Positions 6,572 to 46,032 of a stretch of 64,000 bases of DNA are shown piece by piece. The DNA is taken from the NCBI GenBank assembly GCA_963706325.1, contig CAVPLT010000001.1:960001-1024000 (forward strand), written 5' to 3'. The DNA is from an uncultured Nitrospiraceae bacterium. Lineage in GTDB: Bacteria; Nitrospirota; Nitrospiria; Nitrospirales; Nitrospiraceae. A program made the position numbers and the translations under genes. Position 1 is the stretch's first letter, and each line of letters begins with the position of its first letter. Under the pieces are notes generated by a model, which was not told the origin of the DNA, made no database searches, and worked only from the letters and a program-made list of their open reading frames with translations.

Positions 6572-6588
6572 AAACCATCGCGCGGGCT

Positions 6589-8001: not shown

Positions 8002-8279
8002 CGAATCCGATGTTGGGCGATGTAATCTGTCAAGGCACGCAGGGAGGCCAAGGCGGCCCGGTTCTCAGAGCGCAATTCCACACCGTACCGCTTGGATACC
8101 GCCAGGGCGACCTCAAGCATGTCGATGGAGTCCAGTCCCAGCCCCTCACCGAAGAGCGCTGCTTCGGGATCGATGTCTTTTGGCAGCATTTCCAGTTTAA
8201 GCGAGTCGACGATGAGCCGAGCGATGCCCGGCTGGAGATCCTCTTCTGTATTGAGACCCGGATGCGCTGGTGTCGCCAT
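7998..8279 (-). CDS. Acyl carrier protein
   Basis: GLGLDSIDMLE phosphopantetheine attachment motif; 93 aa, acidic. Confidence 0.9.
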   Translation of the reverse strand: MATPAHPGLNTEEDLQPGIARLIVDSLKLEMLPKDIDPEAALFGEGLGLDSIDMLEVALAVSKRYGVELRSENRAALASLRALTDYIAQHRIR

Positions 8280-8280
8280 A

Positions 8281-16296: not shown

Positions 16297-19200
16297 TTAG
16301 GCCGCAGACGCTTCCCCGCGCTTCGGCAACCATGTGTCGAGGATCGTCTGCAAATCCTTGGGGCGAATCGGCTTTGCCACATAATCGTCCATTCCGGCGG
16401 CAAGGCACTTCTCGCGATCCCCTTTCATGGCGTTCGCCGTCATGGCGACGACCGGCGTGTGTCCTGACGAGCCTTCCATCTTTCGAATCATGGCGGTGGC
16501 CTCAAATCCGTCCATCTCGGGCATCTGGCAGTCCATAAAAATCAGCGGGTAGGGCGCTCGCTCATGAGCCGCGACGGCCTCCTGGCCGTTTCCCACCACA
16601 TCGACACGGCATCCGAGTTTTTCCAATATCTTGCAAGCGACCTTTTGATTTATCGGGTTGTCTTCCGCCAAGAGTAACCGAGTGAGGGTCGAGGTGTGGG
16701 CTTCGGCAAGCGTATGTCGCGTGATGAGAGGTGTCGTAGAGGCTGGTTGCTGTATGCCGGCTGGAGCGGGAGTGTCCAGTAGCCGGCACAGGCACTCAAG
16801 CAGCTGAGATTGTCGCAGCGGTTTCGTAAGATAGGCATCGACGCCGTGGGCTTGCGCCCTGCCGCCGTCTCCTCGTCGTCCTACGGTGGTGAGAACGACG
16901 ACCCGCGTGGCGGCCGTCGCAGGATCGCTCTTGAGGCCTGTGGCGACTTGGAATCCATCCATGTCTGGGAGATGCAATTCGATCAACGCGAGGTCGAACG
17001 GTTTTTGTTTCGCTGCGGCAGCCTGCGCCCTCTCATAGGCGTCGGGGCCGTTCTGCGCCTCGACACAATCTATTCCGTAGGGCACAAGTTGTTGGTGGAG
17101 CGCATGTCTGGTGGTCCTATTGTGATTGACCAGCAAAACACGGCGCCCACGAAGCTGTGTCAGGGAAATCGTGAGAGGCGGGGGGGCGAGCGCCGCCTCC
17201 GGCAGCTCTGCGGTAAACCAGAAGGTGCTGCCCTGGCGCGGACGGCTCTCGATTCCGATCTGGCCCCGCATCTGTTTAACGAGGCGTTGGCAAATGGCGA
17301 GCCCGAGGCCGGTGCCGCCATATCGACGAGTGGTTGAACTATCGGCCTGGGTAAATGCTTGGAACAGTCGCGCCTGCACTGCTTCGGGAATGCCGATCCC
17401 GGTATCCGTAATCGTGAATCGCAGTACAGCCGCTTCTCCCCCCCCTTCGCACGTGACATGGAGAAAGACTTCGCCCGTGGGCGTGAACTTAATGGCATTG
17501 CCGATCAGGTTGACGAGGATCTGTCGGACACGGCCTGGGTCGCCAAGGACACCGATCGGCACCGCGGCATCGACCAGGCCGATCAACTCAAGGCCCTTAC
17601 TCTGAGCCTGTTCCGCGAGCAGCTCCAAGGTATCTTCTACGGTCGTCCGGAGGTCGAAGGCGAGATTCTCAAACTGAAGTTTGCCGGCTTCGATTTTTGA
17701 GAAGTCGAGAATGTCGTTTACCAGAGTCAGTAAGGCGTCGCTCGAGCGGCGGACCGTATCAGCAAACTCATGCTGTTCTTCGGTCAGATCCGTATCGAGT
17801 AACAGACCTGTCATGCCGATAATCGCATTCATCGGGGTTCTAATTTCGTGACTCATGGTCGCGAGAAAATCGGTCTTGAGTTGGACGGCCTGAAGGGCTT
17901 GATCCCTGGCTTTAGCGAGTTCACTATTCTTTGCTTCCAACTCCTGAGCGGTTAGAAGGAGTGCTGCCTCAGCTTTCTTCCGCTGTGTAATGTCATGTCC
18001 CACTGCGAGGTAGCCTAAGATGACGTTCTCCTCATTGCGTAGAGCGGTGATGGTCACGAGCGCTGTGAAGTGGGTTCCATCTTTCCTGACGTAGGTCCAC
18101 TCGTGTTCGTCGAAGCCACCTTGCCGCGCATTGTGGACGAGGACATTGAAGCCTCGCACGGGTAGCCCACGCGGCGTGCTCAGCTCCTGACCGCGGCGCT
18201 CGATCTCGGCTGGAATGTGCAAGATATTGGGGGAATGTTTTCCGAGCATTTCCTCGGCCGCGTAACCTAGCAGCGCTTCGGCTCCTGCATTGAAGGTCGT
18301 GATGCGGCCCGTGGTATCGGTCGCGATAATCGAGAGACGCCTGGCGGCATTGAGAATACCCATCAGCTGTGCATTGGTGGACAGCAGGGCGTCTTCCAAA
18401 TGCTTGCGCTCGGTGACATCGGTCAGGATCACAAGTGTGGCGGACTTTCCCTCGTATGTCACGGGAGCGGCGGCGATTTCCGCAATAATCACCCTGCCGT
18501 CAAGACGACGTACCCGCTCCACCATCTGCGCATCGCGCCCCTCCCGGTCGATTCCCCCCGCCCGTTCTTCTACGAGTGATCGCGCGTCCCTCTGCATAAA
18601 GTCCGCTATGGGACGCCCCAGGAGTTGTGACAGGGTCATGGCGCCTAACAAAGTCGCACATGCATTATTGGCAAAGACTATTCGATTGCTACAGATGACG
18701 AAAATGGAGTTCGGGGACAACTCTACGAGCGACCGATAACGCAACTCGCCGGCCCGCACGGTGGATTCCAGCTGCTTGGCGTCAGTGATGTCGACGGCGA
18801 TACCTGCCAAGCGATAGACCTTCCCTTCTTGGTCTTTCACCGGGAATCCTCGGTCGCGAATCCATCGCACGGTGCCGGTCGCCGTCACGATACGGTATTC
18901 CTCGTCATAGGGAAGAGAGGTTTGGCAGGCTGCCGCGACGGCGATGCGTTCACGATCATCCGGGTGGATGCATTCGATCCACAGCATGGGGTTCGCGTAC
19001 AAGTCGTCACGGGATCGGCCCCAGATGGATTCGAAACCGGGACTGACGTACAGCATGTGATGTGTATCGGCCGATGTCAGCCAAAACACCGCGTCGATGT
19101 GGTCCGCCAGCTGTCGAAAGCGTTCTTCGCTTTCCTGGAGAGCCCCTTCCAGCGACTTCCGTTCTGAAATGTCGCGGAACATACCTGTATATTTTCGAGA

Positions 19201-21162
19201 CTGTCCGATTGCCAGCTCACTTACAGAGAGGTGTACGTCGACGAGCCTGCCGTCCTTACGAACGACCTGCACCTCGCGTGAGGATCCGATGATGCTCCGT
19301 TTGCCGGCGCTCAGAGACATCGCAAGAAAGTCGTCATGCTGTTCCCGATAGGGGGATGGCATCAAAAGTTTAATATGGCTCCCCACCAGGTCCTGCTCCT
19401 CATATCCAAGCAGGGCAAGCACGGCAGGATTGACGTTTTCGATCCGACCTTGGTCGTCAATGACCATGATCCCGTCGATCGCGCTGTCAAATATGGATTG
19501 GATTTTCCCCTCGCTGTTACGTAGGGCGGATTCGGTGCGTTCATAGTCGGTGATGTCCAGAACGGTTCCGATCATTGTAATGGGCCGGCCGGTTGCGTCA
19601 CGATGCACCACCCCACGGCAGTGAATATGCCGGATTTCTCCGTCGGGCCTGAGAATCCGGCATTTCAGATTGTAAGGCGAGTCATCGTGAAGTGACGTAT
19701 TCACCGCCTCCCGTACTCGGTTTCTGTCATCCGGATGAAGCGCGTCCAGGAAGACTTCGTAACTGGGCCTGGTATGGCCTTGATCGAACCCAAAAATGTG
19801 AAATTGCTCATCAGACCAATGGAGGGATCCATTCTTTAAATCCCATTCCCACGAACCCAGATGAGCCAGTGCTTGCGCTTCGTTCAGAGCTTGTTGCTTC
19901 TTCGATAGGTCCTGTTGGGTCCGCGTTGCCGCCGAATCCAGTGTTTTCCGCGCTGAGATGTCAAGATGGATGCCGGCCGCTCGCAACGGCGCGCCGGATG
20001 CATCTCGGGCGAGGACGCGCCCGCTGCCAAAAATCCATTGCCAGACGCCGCTCCTGTGTAGCAAGCGATGTTCGCTCGAATAACTAGGCGTCTCTCCCCG
20101 AAGATGGGCCGCGACGGCCTCCATCACCGCGGCTTTATCGTCGGGGTGGAGCAGCTGCTCCCAACTCCGGATGTGCGGTTCGATTTCCTCTAGGCGATAT
20201 CCGAGCATGCCGGCCCATCGTTCGTTGAACATCACATGTCCGCTCGGAATGTCCCATTCCCATGTTCCGATATCGGCGGCGTCGACGATCATGTCCATCC
20301 GACTGGCTTGTCGTTCCACCGTCTGTTCATGCACGGTGAGCAATCTCTCCAACTCCACGATTCTCTTGCTCAGCTGGGCAACCCTGGCATCGTTCGAATC
20401 GTTTCTAGTGACGGTCGGCTGCGGGGTGACCGACGCTGGCGATAAGGAAGTCGTGGCCACATGTGGCGCAAGGGTGATTTGTGCACAGAGGGCGAGCGGT
20501 TTGAATAGGTGTGCCGTCGCCTCGGGAATGACCTGCTTGCTGAAGAGGATAACTGAAAAGATATCTCCGTTGGGCAGTGGAGCCCCGAATCCCAGCACCG
20601 AACGCACGCCATACGGGAGTACGAATTCGTCTTGGGCAGGAATATACGGGCTTCCTTCGGCATGAAGCACATGAAAAACATTGAACAGATGTTCCTCCGA
20701 GTCAAGGAGCAGATGATGATTCGGTTGAGTCAATTGAGAAAGTGAGATGCCCAGTTGGTGAAAGAGCTGGCTGAACATCGGCAGTTGGGCGAAATCGTCG
20801 GGGCTACCGAGCGGGACGACTCGGTAACGACTGGAGCGCGAGGGATCGTCCCAGCCTTGTACGGCGCTAGCGCTAGCCAGCAAGGTCAGGCAAGGAAGGG
20901 ACGGATCATCTGGGATCTTCCCTAGTTTTGTGACCGCCAGGTCGCGAAGCTCCGGCGGCAGACGACCATAGGGAGTTGTCTTGAACAATCGGACGAGGAC
21001 GCAGGCCGATTCTTCACTCTGGTCCAGGGTAAAGGAGTTGTACAGATACCGGACCAGGCGATCGGCGGCGGCCTCGAGACTGGTTGCGCCTGTCCCCAGC
21101 ACGCGGAGGGCCGCTCCGCAGGCTGTCATGTCCCTGAGATGGAACGATCGAAGATGGTACAT
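16297..21162 (-). CDS. Cytoplasmic hybrid sensor histidine kinase: unnamed GAF-like N-domain, 6 PAS, HisKA, HATPase, pseudo-REC, REC
   Basis: SHEIRTPMN H-box, NLIGNAIKF, DTGIGI, GGTGLGL; six PAS/PAC repeats ending in DIT/DIS/DVT; REC2 AEDN...FMDCQMP; no TM segment. Confidence 0.92.
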   Translation of the reverse strand: MYHLRSFHLRDMTACGAALRVLGTGATSLEAAADRLVRYLYNSFTLDQSEESACVLVRLFKTTPYGRLPPELRDLAVTKLGKIPDDPSLPCLTLLASASAVQGWDDPSRSSRYRVVPLGSPDDFAQLPMFSQLFHQLGISLSQLTQPNHHLLLDSEEHLFNVFHVLHAEGSPYIPAQDEFVLPYGVRSVLGFGAPLPNGDIFSVILFSKQVIPEATAHLFKPLALCAQITLAPHVATTSLSPASVTPQPTVTRNDSNDARVAQLSKRIVELERLLTVHEQTVERQASRMDMIVDAADIGTWEWDIPSGHVMFNERWAGMLGYRLEEIEPHIRSWEQLLHPDDKAAVMEAVAAHLRGETPSYSSEHRLLHRSGVWQWIFGSGRVLARDASGAPLRAAGIHLDISARKTLDSAATRTQQDLSKKQQALNEAQALAHLGSWEWDLKNGSLHWSDEQFHIFGFDQGHTRPSYEVFLDALHPDDRNRVREAVNTSLHDDSPYNLKCRILRPDGEIRHIHCRGVVHRDATGRPITMIGTVLDITDYERTESALRNSEGKIQSIFDSAIDGIMVIDDQGRIENVNPAVLALLGYEEQDLVGSHIKLLMPSPYREQHDDFLAMSLSAGKRSIIGSSREVQVVRKDGRLVDVHLSVSELAIGQSRKYTGMFRDISERKSLEGALQESEERFRQLADHIDAVFWLTSADTHHMLYVSPGFESIWGRSRDDLYANPMLWIECIHPDDRERIAVAAACQTSLPYDEEYRIVTATGTVRWIRDRGFPVKDQEGKVYRLAGIAVDITDAKQLESTVRAGELRYRSLVELSPNSIFVICSNRIVFANNACATLLGAMTLSQLLGRPIADFMQRDARSLVEERAGGIDREGRDAQMVERVRRLDGRVIIAEIAAAPVTYEGKSATLVILTDVTERKHLEDALLSTNAQLMGILNAARRLSIIATDTTGRITTFNAGAEALLGYAAEEMLGKHSPNILHIPAEIERRGQELSTPRGLPVRGFNVLVHNARQGGFDEHEWTYVRKDGTHFTALVTITALRNEENVILGYLAVGHDITQRKKAEAALLLTAQELEAKNSELAKARDQALQAVQLKTDFLATMSHEIRTPMNAIIGMTGLLLDTDLTEEQHEFADTVRRSSDALLTLVNDILDFSKIEAGKLQFENLAFDLRTTVEDTLELLAEQAQSKGLELIGLVDAAVPIGVLGDPGRVRQILVNLIGNAIKFTPTGEVFLHVTCEGGGEAAVLRFTITDTGIGIPEAVQARLFQAFTQADSSTTRRYGGTGLGLAICQRLVKQMRGQIGIESRPRQGSTFWFTAELPEAALAPPPLTISLTQLRGRRVLLVNHNRTTRHALHQQLVPYGIDCVEAQNGPDAYERAQAAAAKQKPFDLALIELHLPDMDGFQVATGLKSDPATAATRVVVLTTVGRRGDGGRAQAHGVDAYLTKPLRQSQLLECLCRLLDTPAPAGIQQPASTTPLITRHTLAEAHTSTLTRLLLAEDNPINQKVACKILEKLGCRVDVVGNGQEAVAAHERAPYPLIFMDCQMPEMDGFEATAMIRKMEGSSGHTPVVAMTANAMKGDREKCLAAGMDDYVAKPIRPKDLQTILDTWLPKRGEASAA

Positions 21163-21267
21163 GGGCGGCAGCGTGAATCTCCGGACGCAGAAAGAGTTTT
21201 CCGGATACTCTTTCGGTGCGCGGTGGACCGAACTTAAGTTGATGACAACTGTCCATAAAGAGATGCC

Positions 21268-22086
21268 TCATTCAGACAAGTGTGTCAGGTAAAAGGCAGC
21301 AGCCTGGGATCTCCTCGTAAGGTGCAGCTTGGTGTATACGTTGGCTAGATAATTCTTGACCGTTTTGTCGCTGAGGCCGAGTTCTGCCGCGATTTCTTTG
21401 TTGGTTTTTCCTTGGGCAATAAGCGGAAGCAGGCGTTGCTCCTGAGGCGACAGCAGATGCCGCCCTCGCTCAGGCTCTCGATCCGCAAGTTTACGAAGAT
21501 AGGCAAAGGTATGCCTGGTCATGCCGGGATCGAGATACGACTGCCCCTTACTGACCGTCCGCAGCGCATGGAGGAGCGTTTCGGTTCCGGCGTCCTGTAG
21601 CACATACCCATGAGCTCCGGTGGCCACAGCCGACAGTAGGACTGTGTCATCCAGCGTATCGGTGAGGAACAGGATACGCGTGGTCGGCAGCTTAGCGAGA
21701 ATCTCCTTAGCCGTGTCGATGCTTGCGCCGTCCTGCACCCGTAGGTCGAGCATCACAAGGTCAGGTTTGAGTTGAAGAATGAGCGGCACTGCGTCCTGTC
21801 GCAAACTTGCCTCTCCGATCACGGTAAAGTCTGTGACGGATTCGAGCAGTGTGCGTATACCCACTCGCACCAGTTCTTGCGGATTGACAATGAACACGCG
21901 GGACAGTTTCCCCTGATTCTGATTCATAGGTGTATTCCAAGTTGATGGATGCTGGATTGCTTTATGGTTCACAACTCTGAGAGAAGCCTCTTGTTCCGAC
22001 AATCCGATTGGAGAGGCGGATACCATGGCGCCGGATGGCGCTGAACTCGGTGCTCGAGTGGGTTTTGGTTCGTGATGTATCGCCAT
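21268..22086 (-). CDS. NarL/LuxR-type response regulator with atypical receiver domain
   Basis: REC plus HTH (GKTNKEIA...SDKTVKNY); AAGGAG RBS before ATG 22086; alternative start at MNQNQ near 21928. Confidence 0.85.
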   Translation of the reverse strand: MAIHHEPKPTRAPSSAPSGAMVSASPIGLSEQEASLRVVNHKAIQHPSTWNTPMNQNQGKLSRVFIVNPQELVRVGIRTLLESVTDFTVIGEASLRQDAVPLILQLKPDLVMLDLRVQDGASIDTAKEILAKLPTTRILFLTDTLDDTVLLSAVATGAHGYVLQDAGTETLLHALRTVSKGQSYLDPGMTRHTFAYLRKLADREPERGRHLLSPQEQRLLPLIAQGKTNKEIAAELGLSDKTVKNYLANVYTKLHLTRRSQAAAFYLTHLSE

Positions 22087-22187
22087 GGCGTGATCTCCTT
22101 TCCGTAAAATACCTCTGCCCTCATGCGACCCCTCTTTCGTCAGAGGGGCTTCGTCATTCCGTCGAACATGGAGCACCGACCACACCA

Positions 22188-23501
22188 CTAAGACACCTCT
22201 GCCAGGTGACCGAGCGTGGCCTGTTCCACGATGGGAAATGGGATATGAGCTCGGACCCCGACGTCCACACGAGAGAGCGCCAGAACGACATTTTTCCCAC
22301 CGAATCCGAAGCTGTTGATCAGGGCTTTGCCGATGCGAGAAGGTCTGCCCTGCAATGCCACGTAATCCAGGTCACAGGTAGGGTCAGGGTTCGTCAAATG
22401 CAACGTGGGGGGAATGAATTGATGCTCCATGGCCAGTGCCGTACCGATCACCTGAAAGGCGCCACTCGCTGCGAACGCATGGCCCAGAGCAGATTTAAAC
22501 GAGCTGACAGGTACGCGATAGGCATGGGATCCCAGTGATTCTTTGATGGCGGTTGTTTCGATACTGTCGAGCTCCATGGTCCCCAGGCCGCAGGCGTTGA
22601 CATATTCGACTTCTTCAGGAAACCAACTGGCGGTAATCAAGGCCCGGTCGATTGCGCGTTTTTGCTCCTTGCCCGACGCCAACGGACGCGCCATGGAATA
22701 GGCATCGCATGTGAAGCCCCATCCTTCAAGCTCCGCGTACATGTGAGCTCCGCGTAAGCGCGCGTGATCGTAGTCCTCCAGTATGAGGCAACCGGCGCCT
22801 TCGCCCAGCACCATGCCACAACGTGTTCGATCAAATGGACGAGGCAGATTGCGGACCGTGCCGCCGTGATCGGGCGCGAGTACCCGTCCTGCCTCCATCG
22901 CCGAAAAAATGGTGGGATGCAGCGGGGCTTCAGTACCTCCGGCCAAAATGATATCGGCATTGCCGGAGCGAATCATCTCGAATGCTCGGCCGATGGCATT
23001 GGCCGTCGAGGAGCATCCGATGGAGTAGGTTTCGCATTCTCCGTTGATACCGAGCGCAATGGCAATTTCTCCCGACACGGCGTTGGGGAATGTCGATGCC
23101 ATGGTGAAAGGGCTGAGGTGTTGGTGCTTCAGCATGCTGTCGTGTGCCGCAAATGCCTCGCGCAGTCCTGCGATAGACGTGCCGAGGCAAATCGCCATTT
23201 CCGAACGATTTTCATGCTCGATGTCCAGTCTGGCGTCCCGCACCGCCATCAGCGCCGCCGCGACGGCGAAATGACTGACGCGGCCCATGCGTCGAGCTTG
23301 CTTCCGCGGAATAAAATCCTCGGCATCGAAGTCTTTTACTTCGCCGGCGAGGCTGGAGGAAAACGGGGCCGTATCGAAAGAGGAGAGCGGCGCAATCCCG
23401 CTCTGGCCTGTGCTGAGCAAATGCCAAAACGTCTGCAAATTATTTCCCAGAGGGGACACGATACCAAGCCCCGTGATGACGACTCTGCGCATCTGTTTCA
23501 T
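22188..23501 (-). CDS. FabF-like beta-ketoacyl synthase with a His-to-Cys change in the catalytic triad
   Basis: RRVVITGLG, IGCSS, GEGAG, YVNACGLGT (usually NAHGTST), KSALGH, NSFGFGG; GGAGG RBS before ATG 23501. Confidence 0.88.
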   Translation of the reverse strand: MKQMRRVVITGLGIVSPLGNNLQTFWHLLSTGQSGIAPLSSFDTAPFSSSLAGEVKDFDAEDFIPRKQARRMGRVSHFAVAAALMAVRDARLDIEHENRSEMAICLGTSIAGLREAFAAHDSMLKHQHLSPFTMASTFPNAVSGEIAIALGINGECETYSIGCSSTANAIGRAFEMIRSGNADIILAGGTEAPLHPTIFSAMEAGRVLAPDHGGTVRNLPRPFDRTRCGMVLGEGAGCLILEDYDHARLRGAHMYAELEGWGFTCDAYSMARPLASGKEQKRAIDRALITASWFPEEVEYVNACGLGTMELDSIETTAIKESLGSHAYRVPVSSFKSALGHAFAASGAFQVIGTALAMEHQFIPPTLHLTNPDPTCDLDYVALQGRPSRIGKALINSFGFGGKNVVLALSRVDVGVRAHIPFPIVEQATLGHLAEVS

Positions 23502-23517
23502 GGATTCAACCTCCCTG

Positions 23518-24819
23518 TTACGACTGTTGATGACGGTCACGACATGCTTCACCCTCATGCCAAGCGATCAGGTGTTCATGATGGCTCTGAGACACGGCGG
23601 ACGGCGGGTAGTACTTGTCGTAGAAACTTAGGTCCAGATGGTGGGCCTGACAGGCCACGATGGATTTAAACGCGTCGACGTGGGCGGGAAATCGTCCATA
23701 GGTCTGAACGACGTACTCGCAAAATGCGATGGCGGCGGCGATGCCTTGTTCAGAGTGCCGCGGGATCTGAGGTTTGATCGACGGATTGTTCCAAGGCTGA
23801 GAGTCGGGGGTTGCATACAATCCGGTAGCCCCGAATTTGGAGGCGATCAGGTTGAGGACGGCCTCCTCCATGTTGCCGATCAGGGGAGGACAGGGGGCCT
23901 CCCAGACGCCCGGGAGACCGACGGGATTCGGTCGGCGAGGCCCGGTGGTCGGCATGTGAAACTGAAAGCCGAGTCCCGGAACAAGATGTGGTTCGATGCC
24001 TAGGAGGTGGCGACCGCTCCCGACGCTGTGAATTCCGCCACCCAACCCCATGGCCTGTTCCATAAGAAAAATATGCTCCGCGACGATTCCCTGCTCCTGA
24101 AGGGCAGTATCGCTGATGGCGTTATCCAGGTCGCGCAACGTCATCGTGCGGCGCTTGGCCGGGTCATCATGGAGGTGTCCTCCGCGGCTTTTACTGAAAC
24201 GATCGAGCCCGCAGGCGCTATTTCCGTTATCGGTGTCGACAATGAAATAGCCGTACTCATCACTGAGCAAGACCAAGAGTAGGTTCAGATAGACGCTGGC
24301 GATCTCGGTGACAGGAATGAAGTACGTAGAGCCGGGACGATTGGCATACCACTGGTTGAAACTGAGCATGAATGGCAGCTGCCGGGGAATATCGAGTCGC
24401 TCGGCGGACAATTCCGTCAATTTCGTCATGGCCGGGTCTTCAGGCGACGCCGATTCCTTGACAAAATAGGTTCCTGAATCATTCGTGAAAAACAGCCGAG
24501 TCGTTTGAGCGGCACAGGCGCTGGGTACCGTGCGCCCTTGGAGACTCATAAGGGCCATTCCCTGACCGTCCTCGGAGTGAGGACGAGATGAAAACTGCAT
24601 GTCCGCCGTGTGAGCGCCGGTTTTCCCTACCCCAGCAAAAATCAGATGGCGCTCTTCTTCCGCGTTCAGGGGTAGGGGAGGGAGGGAGCTCTTATACTGG
24701 AGAGGGCCGGCGGGTAATTCCATGCCGCACCCGAACCGTCGCGTCTTTCGCTGTTCCAGCAATTCCATAAATGCTTGCACAGAAGTGGATCGGGAAACCT
24801 GGCACGCTGAATTCGCCAT
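23518..24819 (-). CDS. Uncharacterised protein, probable nitroreductase/SagB-like FMN-binding fold
   Basis: 433 aa ORF with AAGGAGG RBS; RKTRRF near the N-terminus, RTVPSA, and late LMEQAMGLGG match the nitroreductase motifs R.S.R.F, R..PSA and L.A.ALGLG. Confidence 0.6.
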   Translation of the reverse strand: MANSACQVSRSTSVQAFMELLEQRKTRRFGCGMELPAGPLQYKSSLPPLPLNAEEERHLIFAGVGKTGAHTADMQFSSRPHSEDGQGMALMSLQGRTVPSACAAQTTRLFFTNDSGTYFVKESASPEDPAMTKLTELSAERLDIPRQLPFMLSFNQWYANRPGSTYFIPVTEIASVYLNLLLVLLSDEYGYFIVDTDNGNSACGLDRFSKSRGGHLHDDPAKRRTMTLRDLDNAISDTALQEQGIVAEHIFLMEQAMGLGGGIHSVGSGRHLLGIEPHLVPGLGFQFHMPTTGPRRPNPVGLPGVWEAPCPPLIGNMEEAVLNLIASKFGATGLYATPDSQPWNNPSIKPQIPRHSEQGIAAAIAFCEYVVQTYGRFPAHVDAFKSIVACQAHHLDLSFYDKYYPPSAVSQSHHEHLIAWHEGEACRDRHQQS

Positions 24820-24912
24820 GTCGTCCTCCTTATGTCGGTCCCCGCTGCGTCGCCGGTGAGCGGCACGTTCTGCGGATGATGCGACACCCTACTGGAAACA
24901 TTTAAGGAAGGA

Positions 24913-24932
24913 ACCTACCCGGCCGGGTAGGT
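24913..24932. promoter_or_regulatory. Lux-box-type operator ACCTACCCGG|CCGGGTAGGT
   Basis: Perfect 20-bp palindrome with the ACCT-N12-AGGT lux-box frame, between divergent genes, about 1.8 kb from a QS-type LuxR gene. Confidence 0.8.
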
Positions 24933-25070
24933 CTCATGAATGGGACGTTGCTCTATGGTGCGGATGCGCGTGGTTGAGTTTCAGACAGGACTACGTACAG
25001 AGAACGAGAAAACGCAACGCTCTTATTCTCTCCTTCCTGCCGTCGCAGGGAGGCGTCACCACCAGGAGGC

Positions 25071-26633
25071 ATGCATATGACACCATCAACTTCTCCCGGA
25101 TGCCCGTATCACTCGGCAGCGGCCGCCCAATCGAACGTCGCGCCGGCCCCTGCATCGCCAGGCCGCACATTGGCGGATCTTCCCGGACCTAAGGGACTGC
25201 CGATTCTTGGAAATCTTTTGCAGTTGGACTTGAAGCATCTCCACACCGTCCTCGAACAGTGGGCGCGCGAGCATGGTCCGATGTATCAATTCCGGATTGC
25301 CCACAAGGCCGTCGTGGCCGTGACCGACACGGACCTCATCAACGAAGTCCTGCGTAAGCGACCGGATGCGTATCGCCGTCTGAATGCCATCGAACCTGTG
25401 TTGAAAGAGATGGGGATCAATGGAGTATTTTCCGCCGAAGGGGATCATTGGTATCGACAACGTCGGATCGCCATGCAGGCCCTCAATACTGCTCATTTGC
25501 GCCAGTTCTTCGAAACGCTCGTCAAGGTGACGGGTCGATTGAAAGCCCGGTGGGAGAAGGCCGTGGCCAAAGGGAGTGCCGTGGAGGCGCAAAAAGATTT
25601 GAGTCGGTACACCATCGATGTGACCGCCAATCTGGCATTTGGATACGATGTCAATACGCTTGAAACAGAAGGCGATGAGCTCCAGGGTCATTTGGCGCGG
25701 ATCTTCCCCATGGTCAATCGTCGCATCAATGCGCCGTTCCCGTATTGGCATTTTATGAAGACGCCGGCGGATCGAGCCTTGGAGGAATCGTTGGCGTTTG
25801 TTCACCGGGCGATCCGCGGGTACATCGCCAACAGCCGGGCTCGCTTGGCGAACGATCCTGAGTTGGCGGCCCATCCGACCAACTTTCTGGAGGCTATGTT
25901 GGCCACGCGCGAGACGGATGGTCCCGAGTTCACCGACGAGGAGATCTCCGGCAACGTCTTGACGATGTTGCTGGGCGGGGAAGACTCCACCGCCGCAACG
26001 ATGGCCTGGATGTTTCATTTCTTGGCGGAGCATCCTGATATTCAGGCGCGCGCGCAGACGGAAGTGGACGAGGTGCTGGGCAACGGCGACATGCTGACGG
26101 CCTATCGTGACCACGAACGACTGCCCTATGTGGAGGCCGTTGCATTCGAGACGATGCGCTTGAAGTCCGTATTTCCCGTGCTGTTTTTAGGCACGAATCA
26201 AGACGTCCAGTTAGGTGGTGTGCGGATTCCGGCCGATACGGCGATCTTCTTGCTCACCAGGCAATGCGGGATGCAGGAGGAGGCCTTTGCGTCGCCGCAG
26301 CAATTCTTGCCGGAGCGTTGGTTGGTATCTGGCGCGGGTACTCAGGAGGGACACAATACAAAAGCGTTCGTTCCATTTGGCGCCGGTCCGCGGTTTTGTC
26401 CGGGACGTAATTTGGCGCTCCTTGAAATCAAAGCCATCATGGCGATGCTCTGTCGAAACTTTTCGATTTCCAAACCAATGAACGCTCGTTCAGTCGAAGA
26501 GCAATTCGGCTTTTTAATGGCGCCCGCAAATCTCTCCGTTGTGATGCGCAGGCGAAACAATGCGTCACGTTCAATCGGTGAGGAGTTCCCGCACGCCGGC
26601 TTGGAGCTGCCGTTCGCGACGACGCGATCGTAA
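25071..26633 (+). CDS. Cytochrome P450
   Basis: PGP..LPILGN, I-helix GGEDST, ExxR (ETMR), PERW, heme motif FGAGPRFCPG; AGGAGG RBS (start 25071 or 25077). Confidence 0.95.
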   Translation: MHMTPSTSPGCPYHSAAAAQSNVAPAPASPGRTLADLPGPKGLPILGNLLQLDLKHLHTVLEQWAREHGPMYQFRIAHKAVVAVTDTDLINEVLRKRPDAYRRLNAIEPVLKEMGINGVFSAEGDHWYRQRRIAMQALNTAHLRQFFETLVKVTGRLKARWEKAVAKGSAVEAQKDLSRYTIDVTANLAFGYDVNTLETEGDELQGHLARIFPMVNRRINAPFPYWHFMKTPADRALEESLAFVHRAIRGYIANSRARLANDPELAAHPTNFLEAMLATRETDGPEFTDEEISGNVLTMLLGGEDSTAATMAWMFHFLAEHPDIQARAQTEVDEVLGNGDMLTAYRDHERLPYVEAVAFETMRLKSVFPVLFLGTNQDVQLGGVRIPADTAIFLLTRQCGMQEEAFASPQQFLPERWLVSGAGTQEGHNTKAFVPFGAGPRFCPGRNLALLEIKAIMAMLCRNFSISKPMNARSVEEQFGFLMAPANLSVVMRRRNNASRSIGEEFPHAGLELPFATTRS

Positions 26634-26691
26634 CGGTGGGTTGCCTCCGGGCGATAGAGGGCACTTAGGTGGCAGCTGAGGCGCTTCGTTC

Positions 26692-27546
26692 CTATCGAGC
26701 GAGATGCGAGGGGCTTGGCGGTTGAATGGTAGGGAGAGGTCTGTCGGAGGTCAGTGAGACCTTAGATGACTGGCGTGGAGCGGGTGGAACCAACAAGCCC
26801 TTCGCGCTGTTCTGCCATTGGGCGACCGCCGCCCAGCGATTTTCGACGCCGCCGAGCTTTTGATAGACATTCTTGAGGTGAAATTTAATCGTATTGAGGC
26901 TGACGTGCAGGATGATGGAAATTTCCCAGTTCGTTTTGCCTTCGGCGACCCATCGCATAATTTCTTCTTCTCGGGCCGTCAGAGCGGGACTGTCCGTCGA
27001 CGTCTGGTCGTCGGTGACTTGGGTCGTGGCGCGCAAGTAGGCCAAATGAAAATGAGGCGCCAGAATTTGCATCATGGTCCGAAGGCGGGTCATCAATCGC
27101 TGGTCGAAGTTGCTGAAGGCGTAATAGGTGCACAGTCCGAGCACACCACGCACCCCCACGGTCAAGCAGGTCTTGATTCCCGCATCGAGTTTGAGATTAA
27201 TCACTTCACGCGGAATCGGCATATCAAGGCAGTCTTCGCTCGATACGGTGCCGATATGAGTTTTTTGAAGCAGTTGGATCGCAGGATCCGTGACATATCC
27301 CTGCGTCGCATAGAGATGGGTATGTTCATCACCGTAGGTTGAATGTCCGATCTCCAATGCCTTTTTCTGGATATGAAACGATCCGTTGGCCGAGAATCGG
27401 TGGGGAATCAACGAGGCGACGGCTGCCGTCAGGTCGGGCAATTGAGCGCGCTCCTGTATGCGTCGCACGCGTTCCATGACTTCGCCCATGTGTTGGAATT
27501 CTTTGCGCGAAAGATATTGAAAGCTCTCAGGTCCCCGAAAGATCAT
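26692..27546 (-). CDS. Quorum-sensing-type LuxR regulator (autoinducer-binding-like domain plus HTH); no luxI in the window
   Basis: Y....Y..DP in the N-domain, L.PHFH.A, HTH LTARE.EIMRWVAEGKTNWEIS.IL..S.NT.KFH; GAGGAGG RBS. Confidence 0.85.
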   Translation of the reverse strand: MIFRGPESFQYLSRKEFQHMGEVMERVRRIQERAQLPDLTAAVASLIPHRFSANGSFHIQKKALEIGHSTYGDEHTHLYATQGYVTDPAIQLLQKTHIGTVSSEDCLDMPIPREVINLKLDAGIKTCLTVGVRGVLGLCTYYAFSNFDQRLMTRLRTMMQILAPHFHLAYLRATTQVTDDQTSTDSPALTAREEEIMRWVAEGKTNWEISIILHVSLNTIKFHLKNVYQKLGGVENRWAAVAQWQNSAKGLLVPPAPRQSSKVSLTSDRPLPTIQPPSPSHLAR

Positions 27547-27944: not shown

Positions 27945-28925
27945 CTATCGCTGGATTTTCAAGGTGGGGCCAAGGGTAAGCCACTTCGTAGGGCCGAGCG
28001 CGGCCATATGAGGAAGGTGAGCCACATACCAGAACACGATATCCTGTTCTTGCACGCCTTGATTGTCTTCGTCATACCCGAGCTGACCCCGAGCCCCGAA
28101 CACCCATGGGATGTCTTCGGCTGGATTTGCACGCCGGATCGCAATATCGAGGTCAGCAAAGCTGTCGCGTTCTCCGTCATCTCTGAGCGGGGCATACCCA
28201 TCGCCAGGGAGAATCCAGACGCCGTGTCCTGTCGGCTGGTCACGAACGAACCAGGCTCGATGTGTACTCACGTTTTTGACGTCATTCCGTTCATTCGTAT
28301 ATTTCTTCCAACCGGGGCCCCACCCTGAGTCCGACGCTCCGTCGTCGTGTCGGAAGACCTGGTCCATTCCGTTGCCGTTGATATCGAAGTCGAAGCGCCA
28401 GTAGGGATTGTGCATGTGATCCGTATTGCATGAGAGCCCGCGGCTTTGTAGGACCGGTCGGATCTCTCCGTCCTCGGATAGATGCCACGATTGGTAGAGG
28501 TGATATTCACCGATTCTGGCATACATTCCCAGCTCCAGCCATTTCACGCCCTGCTGGGTGGCACTCTCGAGGCACACTTTGTGGTCTCCGCAGTTCACAA
28601 TCGGGACTAGGTCCTGCCAACGAAGGCGGTCCTGGAAAGGTCCGCAACGCCCGCTGTCCGCGCGCGAGCCGAACCAGGTGAAGGGATTCCACCATCGGCG
28701 CTCCTTCACATATTTTACGCGGACGACCGGCATACTGGCCTTGGCCAGCACCTGTTCCCCGGCATAGGTGACATTGCGAAGCGCGAGACCGGTGCTGTCT
28801 TTGACCTCGTAATCGAGGCTCCAGCGTCCCCAGTCAAGATGTTCCGACGCCTCGTCTGCCAAGCCAGGCAGAGGGCGTGTGAGAGCGGAGAACAGCAGCA
28901 GAGCAATCACCGCAACGCGTGTCAT
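27945..28925 (-). CDS. Secreted copper amine oxidase catalytic-domain-like protein (shortened)
   Basis: Signal peptide; RIGEYHLYQSWHLSEDGEI aligns with TVGNYDY...W.F..DG.I; HMH...WRFDFDING matches the H.H...RLD.DVDG copper motif; DIVFWYVAHLPH supplies the third His. Confidence 0.65.
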   Translation of the reverse strand: MTRVAVIALLLFSALTRPLPGLADEASEHLDWGRWSLDYEVKDSTGLALRNVTYAGEQVLAKASMPVVRVKYVKERRWWNPFTWFGSRADSGRCGPFQDRLRWQDLVPIVNCGDHKVCLESATQQGVKWLELGMYARIGEYHLYQSWHLSEDGEIRPVLQSRGLSCNTDHMHNPYWRFDFDINGNGMDQVFRHDDGASDSGWGPGWKKYTNERNDVKNVSTHRAWFVRDQPTGHGVWILPGDGYAPLRDDGERDSFADLDIAIRRANPAEDIPWVFGARGQLGYDEDNQGVQEQDIVFWYVAHLPHMAALGPTKWLTLGPTLKIQR

Positions 28926-28945
28926 CTGCTATCCTTTCGATTCGC

Positions 28946-29737
28946 CTATCTAGGCGGTTCATCCCCTGCGTCCAGCACGCGGTCTTCCGTCAGATCCACC
29001 TGCGCCCAGTACTTGGGGTCTCCATCCTGTCCTTGGGAGAAGGTAATCCAGATGACCCGGTGCTCATACCCCGGATCGTTTTTGAAGAACCCACGATCCG
29101 GTTGCATCAGGAGCCCATGTCCCTGGAGCGCCTGCACCTTCCCCGCCAGGCGGGCATCGGCACGAGCTAATTCGATCCCTCGTTGCACATCTTGCGGTCC
29201 CTCGGCAGGCAGGTACCCTTCATATCTCGAAGCTTCCAGTACGGCCGTGTCTTTCATGCGGACATCGATCGCGACATTGTGGCTGTAGCTGAAGTAGGTG
29301 ATTCGGGCGAGTCGGGCTTGATTTCGGCAGCAACCGAATGCGACTTTGCCGTCCGGCGACAGGAGATTTGCATCGATGAATCCCCACCGGTCACCCAGAA
29401 GGGTAACCACTCTGGGATCGGCTTCGGCTGCTTTCCGTAGTGCGACAATTTCAGAAGCTGAGAGGACCGCGGCCTGATTAGGAGATCGCAGGACGGCTGC
29501 CTCATTCACTGTCCCTGCCATCTTAGGTTTGATGTGCCCGACGGATTCGTCGTCGGTGAACTCGAGGATATGTCTGGCCGGGATCTGAGCCGGGAGCGGT
29601 GTCTTCGAAACAATGGTTTCGGGATCTTCCGGACCAAAGGGACCGCGGGAGGCGGCATCGAGACTGCATCCGGGTATGACCACGAGCAGCAGCAGCGTTG
29701 GATAGGGCCACATCGTACGCCGACCTTTCATGGCCAT
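28946..29737 (-). CDS. Lipoprotein resembling the N-terminal D2/D3 domains of copper amine oxidases
   Basis: Lipobox IPG-C; two repeats (LS.SE....AEADPRV and ARADARL) ending in V.V/VDL...VL; the domain assignment is inference. Confidence 0.5.
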   Translation of the reverse strand: MAMKGRRTMWPYPTLLLLVVIPGCSLDAASRGPFGPEDPETIVSKTPLPAQIPARHILEFTDDESVGHIKPKMAGTVNEAAVLRSPNQAAVLSASEIVALRKAAEADPRVVTLLGDRWGFIDANLLSPDGKVAFGCCRNQARLARITYFSYSHNVAIDVRMKDTAVLEASRYEGYLPAEGPQDVQRGIELARADARLAGKVQALQGHGLLMQPDRGFFKNDPGYEHRVIWITFSQGQDGDPKYWAQVDLTEDRVLDAGDEPPR

Positions 29738-30258: not shown

Positions 30259-30268
30259 AGAGCCTCCG

Positions 30269-30979: not shown

Positions 30980-31014
30980 GGAAGACTCCTTCTGCTCACT
31001 GACGGATGGTCTGG

Positions 31015-31881: not shown

Positions 31882-33687
31882 CTATGAGGGGGTCAGTGCT
31901 TTGCGTAGCGCCGCGACTGTTGATAAATCGATACCGGCCGACCGGAGCTGTTCATCGGTGGCTTCCGCAATTCGCTCGAGGCTGCCGAATTGTCTAAGGA
32001 GCCGCTTCCGGCGGACTTCGCCGATGCCGGAGACTTGGTCGAGTTCAGAGGCCAGTAAGGCTTTGCCTCTGAGCTTCCGGTGATAGGTTACGGCAAATCG
32101 GTGAGCTTCGTCTCGAATCCGCTGTACGAGGTGGGTGGCGGGTGAGGTTGGTCGCAGGATGATCGGATTCTTTCGCCCCGGCAGGAAAATACGCTCCTCT
32201 TTCTCGCCACGCGCTTTGGCTAGGCCAATGATGGGAATCTGTTCTTGGCCGACCTGTTTGAGCCCATCCAAGGCGGCGCTCAATTGGCCCAACCCCCCGT
32301 CGATAAGAATCAGATCCGGGCGCGCGAGGTCTTCAGTCGAGCCATAGCGTCGCATGACGGCTTCCTGCATGCTGGCAAAATCGTTGGCGCCTTCGACGGT
32401 TTTAATCCGGAATTTTCGGTAATCGGATTTTTTTGCCTGCCCATCCTCCCAGACGACCAATGAGGCGACCGACTGATTGCCCATGATGTTCGAGATGTCG
32501 AAGCCTTCAATGCGGTGCGGGGCCTTTTCGAGGCGTAACAGGCGCTTCAACTCCGCCGTCGCCTGACGGTCCAAGGCTTCGTTGCGCAAATGGTCGGCAA
32601 TGGCGGCGCTCGCATTTTCTTCGGCGAGTCGCACTAATTGATGCTTGGCGCCACGCTCAGGAGCCATGAGCCGCACGGCTTCGCCTCTTTTGTCCGTCAG
32701 CCACTGTTCGATGAGCGGCGCATCGTCGAGTGCGGTCGGCACCAGAATTTCTTTCGGTGGCTGGCCTTCCTTGTTGTAGAACTGCTCAATAGCGGAGCGG
32801 ACCAATTCTTCGTCGCTGGCATCGCTCGATTGAGGCCAGAAGAAATCTTTACGCCCGATCAGTAACCCCCCCCGCACAAACAGCAGTTGAAGATCTGCCG
32901 CGGGTCCCTGCCTGGCCAAACCGACCACATCTTGATCGGCGGCGCTGATTTGGGTGATGCGTTGTTTCTCAAGGGTGCGCTCGACGTTGAAGAGCCGGTC
33001 CCGCAACCGTGCTGCTTCTTCAAACTGCTCCTGTTCCGCCGCCCGCTCCATTTCCTCGCGAAGGCTGTCCAGCAATTCGCTGTCGCGTCCTTCCAGGAAT
33101 TGGCGGACTTGTTTCACGATCAGGTGATAGTCGTCGCGAGATTGATTGCCGATGCAGGGCGCCATGCATCGCTTGATCTCGAATTCGATACAGGCGCGCT
33201 CGGCCTTGCCGTTGATGTCGATTTCGCAGGTGGCCAGTGGAAAGACCTTCCGGATGACCTTCAACGTATCGCGCAGCGCTCCGGCCGGCGTATAGGGCCC
33301 ATAGTAGAGCGCGCCGTCTTTCTGCACGCGCCGGACGATCGAGAGGCGAGGAAAATCTTCTTTGATGGGCAGGCGAAGATAGGGATATTGTTTGTCGTCA
33401 CGAAGGACGACGTTGAATCGAGGACGATGACGCTTGATCAGGTTGCTTTCGAGGATCAGGGCTTCGAGAACGGATCGGGTGACGATAGTTTCGAGATCAG
33501 CGATCTCGTTGACGAGCAGGCTGGTTTTTGGTGTCTGGTCGCTGCCCTTTTGGAAATAGGAGCGGACCCGGTCAGCCAGAACCGCGGCTTTGCCGACGTA
33601 CAGAATCTCCTTCCTGTCATTCTTGAAGAGATAGCAGCCGGGTTGTTCCGGCAAATGCGACAGCTTGGATTGCAGTGCGTCTGTCAT
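31882..33687 (-). CDS. uvrC: Excinuclease ABC subunit C
   Basis: GIY-YIG (PGCY...YVGKA), UVR domain (FEEAARLRD), RNase H-like (IEGFDIS, DGGLGQ, RDEAHRFA), HhH. Confidence 0.97.
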   Translation of the reverse strand: MTDALQSKLSHLPEQPGCYLFKNDRKEILYVGKAAVLADRVRSYFQKGSDQTPKTSLLVNEIADLETIVTRSVLEALILESNLIKRHRPRFNVVLRDDKQYPYLRLPIKEDFPRLSIVRRVQKDGALYYGPYTPAGALRDTLKVIRKVFPLATCEIDINGKAERACIEFEIKRCMAPCIGNQSRDDYHLIVKQVRQFLEGRDSELLDSLREEMERAAEQEQFEEAARLRDRLFNVERTLEKQRITQISAADQDVVGLARQGPAADLQLLFVRGGLLIGRKDFFWPQSSDASDEELVRSAIEQFYNKEGQPPKEILVPTALDDAPLIEQWLTDKRGEAVRLMAPERGAKHQLVRLAEENASAAIADHLRNEALDRQATAELKRLLRLEKAPHRIEGFDISNIMGNQSVASLVVWEDGQAKKSDYRKFRIKTVEGANDFASMQEAVMRRYGSTEDLARPDLILIDGGLGQLSAALDGLKQVGQEQIPIIGLAKARGEKEERIFLPGRKNPIILRPTSPATHLVQRIRDEAHRFAVTYHRKLRGKALLASELDQVSGIGEVRRKRLLRQFGSLERIAEATDEQLRSAGIDLSTVAALRKALTPS

Positions 33688-33836
33688 TCTTAATAAGCAC
33701 ATGTTTCGGTCGGCATCGGTAGTTATTGTACTTCCTTAACGGGGGGGACTATCCAGCACGAACTAAAGGCTGGGGAAGTCTACTCGGGCTAACCGGACCT
33801 TGAAGTGAGCAGGTGCAGCGCGACAGGAACACTCCG

Positions 33837-44470: not shown

Positions 44471-44485
44471 GGCCGATACGGGAGA

Positions 44486-46023: not shown

Positions 46024-46032
46024 GTCCCTCCG

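What the first reader, a model, noticed from the sequence alone, without database searches (positions are those of the whole stretch)
16297..27546. Candidate non-AHL quorum-sensing-like circuit: LuxR, lux box, P450, nitroreductase-fold protein, altered ketosynthase, atypical regulator and O2-sensing kinase
Seen: a QS-type LuxR with no luxI in the window. A perfect lux-box palindrome sits between two divergent units. One arm is a P450. The other is a co-oriented run of nitroreductase-fold protein, FabF-like KS, NarL-type regulator and 6-PAS hybrid kinase. Established: LuxR proteins bind 20-bp ACCT-N12-AGGT boxes and usually autoinduce their own signal synthase, and Photorhabdus PluR and PauR sense ketosynthase-derived pyrones and dialkylresorcinols instead of AHLs. 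Inference: the KS, flavoprotein and P450 make or modify a fatty-acid-derived ligand for this LuxR, giving a feedback loop that feeds a two-component output. Three components (LuxR pocket, KS triad, receiver domain) each deviate from their canonical family, which fits specialisation. I do not recognise this arrangement as a described system.
Basis: partly seen in the sequence, partly recalled or inferred. Interest (0 to 1): 0.9.

Follow-up and report, generated by a model that had tools for sequence, protein, structure and literature searches.

The report
Swappable non-AHL quorum-sensing cassette in Nitrospira
Many nitrifying Nitrospira that lack the usual homoserine-lactone synthase carry, at the same chromosomal spot, a LuxR-type receptor, a conserved DNA palindrome and two unusual enzymes (sometimes plus a P450), which likely make and sense an undescribed chemical signal that comes in several swappable dialects.

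Summary
Observation confirmed; interpretation partly supported. The core is a trio, not six genes: LuxR, a nitroreductase-fold flavoenzyme and a Cys-Cys-His FabF-like ketosynthase, found in 57 of 201 Nitrospiraceae genomes; this genome has no luxI. The box (CCTACCC-N4-GGGTAGG) occurs only in trio genomes (55 of 57) and has a -10-like hexamer 21-22 bases away towards the enzymes (59 of 59 loci) and towards the P450 (14 of 14). The trio usually sits behind uvrC, where relatives carry luxR/luxI; only 6 of 57 trio genomes also have luxI. Close relatives have swapped whole alleles in place. The receptor's Trp57-equivalent tracks tailoring: His with this P450 (12 of 12), Leu/Met with an unrelated P450 (6 of 6), Phe with neither (38 of 38). 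Best reading (0.65): an autoinduced non-AHL quorum-sensing circuit with pherotype-like variants. No ligand, binding or expression was shown; sensing an external substrate remains possible. The downstream regulator is a pseudo-receiver and the kinase is lineage-specific, so a phospho-relay output is not supported. Not found in the papers searched; this scan noted the trio twice before in other genomes.

The parts
26692..27546 (-). LuxR-type receptor with altered pocket (His75-Tyr79-Asp87-Pro88-Ser102-Cys127 at the WYDPWG positions); core
   Evidence: Pfam Autoind_bind E 1.8e-4 (below cut-off) + GerE; PDB best hits CviR, SdiA, RhlR, LasR; residue tally against 24 canonical Nitrospiraceae LuxR
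25071..26633 (+). Cytochrome P450 (type a), divergent from the enzyme operon; allele-specific accessory
   Evidence: PF00067 E 3e-93; in 14 of 61 cassette loci, always with the His-type receptor where the receptor is held, 12 of 12
24954..24959 (+). -10-like hexamer TATGGT, 21 bases from the box, towards the P450 (predicted promoter element)
   Evidence: TAnnnT at 21/22 in 14 of 14 P450a loci versus 6 of 45 others; about 1% by chance
24913..24932 (.). lux-type box ACCTACCCGGCCGGGTAGGT (consensus RCCTACCC-N4-GGGTAGGY); predicted LuxR binding site; core
   Evidence: variant box co-occurs with a changed recognition helix in L196/L197
24886..24891 (-). -10-like hexamer TAGGGT, 21 bases from the box, towards the flavoenzyme-KS operon (predicted promoter element)
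   Evidence: TAnnnT at 21 (52) or 22 (7) in 59 of 59 loci with the exact box
23518..24819 (-). Uncharacterised nitroreductase-fold (predicted FMN) enzyme, closest solved folds are small nitroreductases and the azoline oxidases BmdC/ThcOx; core
   Evidence: model pLDDT 88; 18 of 55 aligned relatives hit PF00881 weakly; R-K/R-T/S-R-R-F motif in 59 of 59
22188..23558 (-). FabF-like ketosynthase with Cys182, His303-equivalent replaced by Cys323 (NACGLG), Lys355, His360; likely start at 23501; core
   Evidence: NACGLG in 56 of 57 cassette KS, the 57th is frameshifted before it
21268..22086 (-). NarL-type regulator with pseudo-receiver domain; co-oriented downstream gene, likely relay; conserved in this genus only
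16297..21162 (-). Hybrid histidine kinase, 6 PAS (one FixL-like haem PAS), two receivers; co-oriented but lineage-specific, not core
   Evidence: truncated in L042, L055, L057; absent from most non-genus cassette loci
31882..33702 (-). uvrC: landmark of the chromosomal slot shared with luxR/luxI (context, not part of the circuit)
   Evidence: within the fetched stretch in 43 of 61 cassette loci and 18 of 20 luxI loci

Best explanation
This is likely a self-inducing, non-AHL quorum-sensing circuit: the ketosynthase and the nitroreductase-fold enzyme would make a small signal, the P450 would tailor it, and the LuxR is predicted to bind that signal and the palindrome and to switch on both promoters. 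Shown: gene content, fold assignments, altered residues, conservation and two-sided promoter geometry of the box, shared chromosomal slot and near-exclusion with luxI, in-place allele swaps, co-variation of the receptor pocket with P450 type. Inferred: binding of LuxR to the box, transcription from the two -10 elements, that the ligand is the product of these enzymes. Chemistry (least certain, about 0.35 on its own): the KS keeps its acyl-accepting Cys but lacks one of the two decarboxylation histidines and has no dedicated ACP or ligase in the locus, so it probably joins or transfers acyl chains taken from housekeeping fatty-acid metabolism; the flavoenzyme would then oxidise or aromatise the product, as DarA does after DarB; a P450 would hydroxylate it in two of three dialects. 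Output is probably indirect: only one box exists per genome, and regulators (here a pseudo-response regulator and a PAS kinase) lie co-oriented behind the KS, so they would be read as the tail of the induced operon.
For: Box only in genomes with the enzyme: 55 of 57 versus 0 of 144; none at 3 unlinked paralogues or 64 distant homologue loci. -10-like hexamer at fixed 21/22 bases, 59 of 59 towards the enzymes, 14 of 14 towards P450a, 6 of 45 otherwise. The two enzyme-positive genomes without the exact box have a variant box in the same register and are the only 2 of 59 with Phe to Thr in the recognition helix. The same palindrome screen upstream of luxI recovers ACCTGGCG-N4-CGCCAGGT (25 of 26 loci among the top two palindromes), the box shown by reporter and EMSA to be bound and read in both directions by Nitrospira NspR1 (PMC8553950, passages). 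Slot shared with luxR/luxI; luxI in 6 of 57 cassette genomes versus 91 of 144 others; left-over AHL parts (canonical box, HTH-only luxR-like gene, luxI fragment) beside the cassette in L080, L159, L196, L197. Swaps: L034/L043 flanks 92-99% identical in DNA but LuxR 44%, flavoenzyme 61%, KS 66% in protein; L154/L155 KS 96%, LuxI 95%, canonical LuxR 97% but cassette LuxR 62%, flavoenzyme 67% and different P450s. Pocket residue His/P450a 12 of 12, Leu-Met/P450b 6 of 6, Phe/neither 38 of 38; the two P450s are 26% identical over 200 residues and lie on opposite sides of the enzymes. Tyr61 and Asp70, the two residues kept in PluR and PauR (PMC4414361, passages), are kept in 57 of 57.
Against: No ligand, product, binding or expression data. 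In Photorhabdus the operon next to pluR is the target, not the synthase (PMC7154725, part 2 of 6 read), so adjacency and a box do not prove autoinduction. The co-variation rests on few events: His/P450a receptors form one group or nearly (9 of 9 on one side of a branch, 100/97; 11 of 12 grouped, one unresolved), Leu/Met receptors one group, and the helix/box change one pair of kin; LuxR, P450a and flavoenzyme are neighbours and could hitch-hike. 33 of the 57 cassette genomes are one genus, so the luxI exclusion is largely one lineage; in genus g26 4 of 7 cassette genomes keep luxI. L197 (Phe type) has a third, unrelated P450 behind a fadL-like gene on the far side of luxR. Six cassette loci sit by motAB, not uvrC. 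Distant relatives of the flavoenzyme (32-40% identity, 67 loci) have no KS or LuxR nearby, so the family is not a signal synthase by nature.
Confidence: 0.65

Rival explanations
1. Substrate-induced modification or quenching: the LuxR senses an outside compound (a neighbour's signal or a toxic lipid) and induces enzymes that oxidise, reduce or acylate it.
For: P450s and nitroreductase-fold enzymes commonly act on foreign compounds (own knowledge); pocket and enzymes would also co-vary if the substrate changes; single box per genome fits a small dedicated regulon; P450a has fatty-acid-hydroxylase-type P450/reductase fusions among its best PDB hits.
Against: The invariant partner is a condensing-type enzyme with intact nucleophile; the cassette occupies and in places displaces the luxR/luxI slot; in-place exchange of whole alleles between close relatives is the pattern of signal-receptor pairs.
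Confidence: 0.15
2. Target operon: the LuxR responds to a non-AHL signal made elsewhere (or to a metabolite) and the KS-flavoenzyme-P450 product is an effector such as a membrane or aggregation lipid, as with pluR and pcfABCDEF.
For: Precedent in Photorhabdus (PMC7154725); the genome has other ketosynthases and a second degenerate LuxR-like gene.
Against: A receptor whose ligand is made elsewhere has no reason to change its pocket each time a P450 is gained, or to be swapped with the flavoenzyme while the KS stays.
Confidence: 0.12
3. AHL eavesdropping solo: the LuxR detects AHLs of luxI-bearing Nitrospira or other neighbours.
For: Tyr, Asp and Pro of the AHL motif are kept; PMC12342949 (passages) leaves this open for lineage I LuxR without LuxI; luxI-bearing relatives are common (97 of 201).
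Against: Both lactone-contacting Trp positions and the Gly are changed in all cassette receptors but kept in 24 of 24 canonical ones; genomes with both systems keep two receptors and two different boxes.
Confidence: 0.05

Closest known systems
LuxI/LuxR AHL quorum sensing, in Nitrospira NspI/NspR1 (PMC8553950, passages read)
   Same: LuxR architecture; 20-bp ACCT-N12-AGGT box in front of the enzyme gene(s), read in both directions; same chromosomal slot behind uvrC; two-component genes next to the box-driven units.
   Different: No luxI; pocket H/F/L/M-Y-D-P-S-C; different box core (ACCC..GGGT versus GGCG..CGCC) and recognition helix; two unrelated enzymes in place of the synthase.
Photorhabdus PauR with DarABC (dialkylresorcinols) and PluR with PpyS (photopyrones) (PMC4414361 passages; PMC7154725 part 2 of 6)
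   Same: Non-AHL LuxR keeping Tyr61 and Asp70; a stand-alone ketosynthase; in Dar, a KS followed by an aromatase.
   Different: Motif is not TYDQCS/TYDQYI; KS is FabF-type with Cys-Cys-His, whereas PpyS is FabH-like; oxidase is a nitroreductase-fold protein with no described member; enzymes are linked to the receptor and box, whereas in Photorhabdus the adjacent operon is the target pcf.
LuxR solo of Nitrospira defluvii D8PAV3 (PMC4338825, passages read)
   Same: Listed there as F-Y-D-P-gap-C and suggested to bind a non-AHL ligand; this is the residue pattern of the Phe-type cassette receptor (sequence identity not tested here).
   Different: The passages read do not link it to a box, a ketosynthase, a flavoenzyme or a P450.
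SagB-like azoline oxidases ThcOx, BmdC, McbC and small nitroreductases (PDB 3hoi, 8cqs, 3hj9)
   Same: Nitroreductase fold with N-terminal Arg-rich flavin-phosphate motif (Z 13-15).
   Different: 10-19% identity; 433 residues of which under 200 align; no RiPP or NRPS context.
Pherotype loci such as Bacillus comQXP and Staphylococcus agr (recalled, no call)
   Same: Divergent synthase-receptor alleles exchanged in place between close relatives with conserved flanks.
   Different: Small-molecule enzymes and a cytoplasmic LuxR rather than peptide and membrane kinase.

Membership tests
LuxI/LuxR AHL system | LuxI-family synthase in the genome | tested here: not met
   PF00765 0 of 1, three Nitrospiraceae LuxI queries best E 0.53; search rings in 97 of 201 family genomes; genome 96% complete
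LuxI/LuxR AHL system | WYDPWG pocket motif | tested here: not met
   H-Y-D-P-S-C; canonical relatives 24 of 24 WYDPWG
QS-type LuxR regulators | Autoinducer-binding domain plus GerE HTH | tested here: met
   PF03472 E 1.8e-4 (21.5 bits, cut-off 23) + PF00196; aligns full length with canonical LuxR; single-sequence fold failed
QS-type LuxR regulators | 20-bp box next to a -10 element of the controlled promoter | tested here: met
   (sequence geometry only)
QS-type LuxR regulators | Ligand-dependent binding of the box; autoinduction by own product | not testable with these tools
   needs reporter, EMSA and LC-MS
PluR/PpyS and PauR/DarABC | TYDQCS or TYDQYI motif | tested here: not met
PluR/PpyS and PauR/DarABC | FabH-like ketosynthase | tested here: not met
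   best families and structures are FabF/KAS II; FabH models score E 2e-4 only
FabF elongating ketosynthase | Cys-His-His triad (bioRxiv 10.1101/2021.02.13.431092, passages) | tested here: not met
   Cys-Cys-His; below TIGR03150 cut-off, 426 versus 494 bits; a closer-to-ordinary FabF homologue lies elsewhere in the genome
Nitroreductase superfamily | Fold and Arg-rich flavin-binding motif | tested here: met
SagB/azoline oxidase subgroup | Subgroup catalytic residues and azoline substrate context | tested here: inconclusive
   BmdC/ThcOx Z 13.0-13.4, below small nitroreductases Z 14.6-14.8; no RiPP/NRPS genes in loci; residues not mapped
Phosphorylatable NarL-type response regulator | Acidic pocket, phospho-Asp, Thr/Ser, Lys | tested here: not met
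   N-P-Q-E for D-D-H, Gln for Lys in all genus homologues shown; Asp replaced by Tyr/His/Phe in 10
FixL-type haem O2 sensor | Haem PAS with proximal His and distal Arg region | tested here: inconclusive
   FixL best hit E 2e-21, His and IIG..R kept (residue roles recalled); haem and O2 binding not testable; kinase core is BarA-like hybrid

The most novel reading that the evidence does not exclude
A new class of quorum-sensing synthase, a Cys-Cys-His ketosynthase plus an uncharacterised nitroreductase-fold oxidase, makes an unknown autoinducer; it has replaced LuxI/AHL signalling in a whole Nitrospira genus and invaded the luxR/luxI slot in several others, and it exists as at least three dialects (untailored, P450a, P450b) that strains exchange like pherotypes, with the flavoenzyme and P450, not the KS, setting specificity. 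A related KS-flavoenzyme pair in Sulfurirhabdus-like betaproteobacteria would extend it beyond the phylum.
Probability: 0.5. Interest if true: 0.9.

Novelty: new variant of a known kind. Interest (0 to 1): 0.8.

Why it matters
Nitrospira are the main nitrite oxidisers in wastewater plants and many soils and waters, and quorum-sensing manipulation is discussed as a way to steer nitrification. A 2025 genome survey states that it is unclear what the LuxR proteins of LuxI-less lineage I genomes respond to (PMC12342949, passages). This cassette gives a concrete, cheap test: three or four genes, one box, three natural alleles as built-in specificity controls. If right, it adds a new autoinducer chemistry and synthase family, assigns a first function to an unannotated nitroreductase-fold family, shows what a His-to-Cys ketosynthase does, and means AHL addition or AHL-lactonase quenching would miss a large part of Nitrospira.

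Tried and rejected
Single-sequence fold of the LuxR failed (pLDDT 35), so the pocket was judged by alignment only. The wide VIA fold search could not be run; only Foldseek and its re-alignment were used, so a better structural relative may have been missed. No complex prediction was obtained; no binding between KS and flavoenzyme is claimed. No RNA holder was listed, so expression is untested. Sequence searches of the flavoenzyme against Pfam, NCBIfam and PDB gave nothing significant; the Atlas gave unnamed clusters, one with 16% PF00881. Neighbourhoods of 12 distant flavoenzyme homologue loci and two fusion proteins showed no common theme. The context of the Sulfurirhabdus-type KS could not be fetched. 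A regulon scan found no second good box in this genome (7 sites with 3 mismatches). The sigma-70 consensus scan found neither predicted promoter (expected if -35 is replaced by the box) and no terminator on the minus strand between KS and regulator; it is weak evidence. Rejected: the perfect symmetry of the palindrome as evidence (imperfect in most relatives); all six genes as one conserved unit; a phospho-relay from the kinase to the regulator; a hidden luxI near the second LuxR-like gene on contig C7. The Fisher test of luxI exclusion (p 3e-12) is not used, because kin are not independent. Literature searches with no hit: LuxR + ketosynthase + nitroreductase + signal + quorum sensing; Nitrospira + ketosynthase + LuxR; non-AHL + LuxR + nitroreductase + cytochrome P450; searches gave nothing on this cassette in their listings. 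The library lacks most subscription papers, and no supplements were read; supplements of PMC12342949 and PMC8553950 may list these LuxR genes.
Full report
Setting. The window lies on contig C1 of a 4.24-Mb, 96% complete genome. Named records with 85-97% identical proteins are Nitrospira/Nitrospiraceae MAGs.

The parts. The LuxR has a weak autoinducer-binding domain and a GerE helix-turn-helix; its best PDB relatives are CviR, SdiA, RhlR and LasR. Against 24 canonical LuxR proteins from luxI loci of the same family, all WYDPWG, the 57 cassette receptors keep Tyr, Asp and Pro, have Cys for Gly (57 of 57), Ser or Thr for the second Trp, and Phe, Leu, Met or His for the first (TraR positions as defined in PMC4414361, passages). 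The KS is FabF-like but below the FabF cut-off; alignment to solved FabF shows Cys182 and His360 kept and the first histidine replaced by Cys323, invariant as NACGLG in 56 of 57. Both histidines take part in decarboxylation in elongating KSs (bioRxiv 10.1101/2021.02.13.431092, passages), so ordinary chain elongation is doubtful (inference). The 433-residue protein has no family hit; a model from a 55-row alignment (pLDDT 88) matches nitroreductase folds, best 8cqs/3hoi (Z 14.8, rmsd 2.5-2.6, 177 residues) then the azoline oxidases BmdC and ThcOx (Z 13.0-13.4). It belongs to a wide unannotated family (1004 representatives at E 0.001). The regulator lacks the acidic pocket and lysine, and the phospho-Asp is replaced in 10 genus homologues. 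The kinase has six PAS domains, one FixL-like.

No luxI. PF00765 finds nothing in this genome (its built-in control was silent), but rings in 97 of 201 family genomes, and three such LuxI proteins give no tblastn hit better than E 0.53 here. In this genus luxI was found in 1 of 33 other genomes, on a 2.9-kb contig.

What is conserved. The flavoenzyme is in 35 of 36 genus genomes and 0 of 24 from other families of the order; in 57 of 201 family genomes; and in none of the 204 sampled phylum genomes outside the family. I fetched 34 of the 35 genus loci: all have flavoenzyme, KS and regulator in order, 33 show the LuxR (one contig ends first), 8 have the P450, and the kinase is cut to its C-terminal part in 3. 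In other genera LuxR, flavoenzyme and KS stay together while the downstream genes change to other kinases and regulators. The core is therefore a trio. Homologues of 32-40% identity (3 paralogue loci, 64 distant loci) have no KS, LuxR or box.

The box. Perfect symmetry is not informative, but conservation is. CCTACCC-N4-GGGTAGG is in 55 of 201 family genomes, all of them flavoenzyme-positive, once per genome except one genome with two cassettes. A TAnnnT hexamer lies 21 or 22 bases from it towards the enzymes in 59 of 59 loci, and on the other side in 14 of 14 loci with the divergent P450 but 6 of 45 without; chance is about 1%. That spacing places the box over the -35 region, as for LuxR activators (own knowledge). 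The two flavoenzyme-positive genomes without the exact box have a variant in the same register and are the only 2 of 59 receptors with Thr for Phe in the recognition helix (one event among kin). As a positive control, the same screen upstream of luxI returned ACCTGGCG-N4-CGCCAGGT-type boxes in 25 of 26 loci, the sequence shown to be bound by NspR1 and read in both directions (PMC8553950, passages).

The slot. Of 20 luxI loci, chosen from the 97 for long contigs, 18 have uvrC within the fetched stretch. Of 61 cassette loci, 43 have uvrC, 2 only UPF0114, 6 sit by motAB, and 10 show none of these markers. Four loci hold both systems side by side with two receptors and two boxes (L153-L156). luxI is in 6 of 57 cassette genomes and 91 of 144 others, but 33 of the 57 are one genus. 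In genus g18, 40 of 45 have luxI and the 3 cassette genomes are among the 5 without; in g26, 4 of 7 cassette genomes keep luxI. Leftovers of the AHL system flank the cassette in luxI-negative loci: a gene 47-66% identical to the canonical LuxR helix-turn-helix in L080, L159, L196, L197, a canonical box in L159 and L196, a luxI fragment (E 3e-4) in L197. This suggests replacement (inference).

Dialects. L034 and L043 are 92-99% identical in DNA on both sides of the cassette (uvrC protein 98.8%), yet their LuxR, flavoenzyme and KS are 44, 61 and 66% identical and only L034 has the P450; L034's alleles are 85-95% identical to this window's. L036/L054 and the window/L044 show the same pattern more weakly, and the P450 label needs 4 changes on the uvrC and neighbouring-gene trees (FastTree). 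In L154/L155, KS, LuxI and canonical LuxR are 95-97% identical but cassette LuxR and flavoenzyme 62 and 67%. A second P450, 26% identical to the first over 200 residues, lies behind the KS in other loci. Over 61 loci: His with P450a 12 of 12; Leu/Met with P450b 6 of 6 (2 more end before the KS is passed); Phe with neither 38 of 38; 3 loci lack a scorable receptor. One Phe locus has a third P450 behind a fadL-like gene. These are two or three events, not 56: His receptors group on the LuxR tree, although their flavoenzymes and KSs need 3 and 5 changes (FastTree).

Mechanism. The simplest reading is autoinduction: enzymes make a diffusible compound, P450s tailor it, the receptor pocket follows, and the liganded receptor activates both promoters from one box. 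The chemistry is a guess: acyl joining or transfer by the KS from housekeeping thioesters (no ACP or ligase in the locus), then flavin-dependent oxidation, by analogy with DarB and the aromatase DarA (PMC7154725, part 2 of 6). With one box per genome, wider output would have to pass through the regulators behind the KS; the gap to the regulator is 102 bases with no terminator called. Rivals are substrate-induced modification (0.15), a target operon as with pluR-pcf (0.12) and AHL eavesdropping (0.05).

Novelty. It works like LuxI/LuxR and like PauR/DarABC but fails the membership tests of both. The N. defluvii solo was noted as a possible non-AHL binder with the Phe-type residues (PMC4338825, passages), and lineage I LuxR without LuxI is an acknowledged open point (PMC12342949, passages); searches found no paper joining it to these enzymes. 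Two earlier AI notes of this scan describe the trio in other genomes; they are not independent evidence, and the shown parts do not mention the slot, the swaps or the P450 dialects. A KS with the same NACGLG motif occurs in Sulfurirhabdus autotrophica (54%), and a related KS cluster shares five contig lengths with a flavoenzyme cluster, an indirect hint that the pair exists outside Nitrospirota.

Noticed in passing
window 482-9111 (-): A separate cluster with a ketosynthase, a KS-like partner, MMPL exporter, LolA-like protein, lipid A-type acyltransferase, AMP-binding enzyme and polysaccharide deacetylase; looks like an aryl-polyene/xanthomonadin-type lipid cluster (recalled), unrelated to the cassette.
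   Followed up: no
window 27945-31647 (-): Five co-oriented secreted or lipoprotein-like ORFs between uvrC and LuxR, one with a weak copper amine oxidase fragment hit and four without family; the two tested are conserved in this genus and a few others and follow the genome, not the cassette allele.
   Followed up: partly
window 20263-21162 (-): The first 300 residues of the kinase have no Pfam match although conserved in the genus.
   Followed up: partly
L195:8392-9222 (own genome, contig C7): A second LuxR-like protein with a very degenerate autoinducer-binding domain (E 0.003), beside a lone receiver gene; no luxI nearby.
   Followed up: partly
L173-L192, L154, L155, L157, L196, L197: A fadL/todX-type outer-membrane transporter gene is divergent from luxR in most luxI loci and is kept beside some cassette receptors; this genome has two homologues elsewhere. 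It may import hydrophobic signals.
   Followed up: partly
L173-L192 upstream of luxI: The canonical box ACCTGGCG-N4-CGCCAGGT is conserved family-wide and usually faces a small HisKA_3 kinase and a NarL-type regulator on its other side.
   Followed up: partly
L156 and L157: One genome carries two cassettes plus luxI.
   Followed up: no
P0143, P0211: Distant flavoenzyme homologues fused to an MpaB/Lcp oxygenase domain or an acetoacetate decarboxylase domain.
   Followed up: no
L182, L184, L185; own genome C1 330612 and 1045418: A repeated element with core RCGTACCCNNNNGGGTACGY resembles the box but appears to be a dispersed repeat, not tied to the cassette.
   Followed up: no
window 39434-53776 (-): NADH dehydrogenase operon with two consecutive antiporter-like (NuoM/N-type) subunits after NuoL; ordinary for the group as far as I recall.
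   Followed up: no
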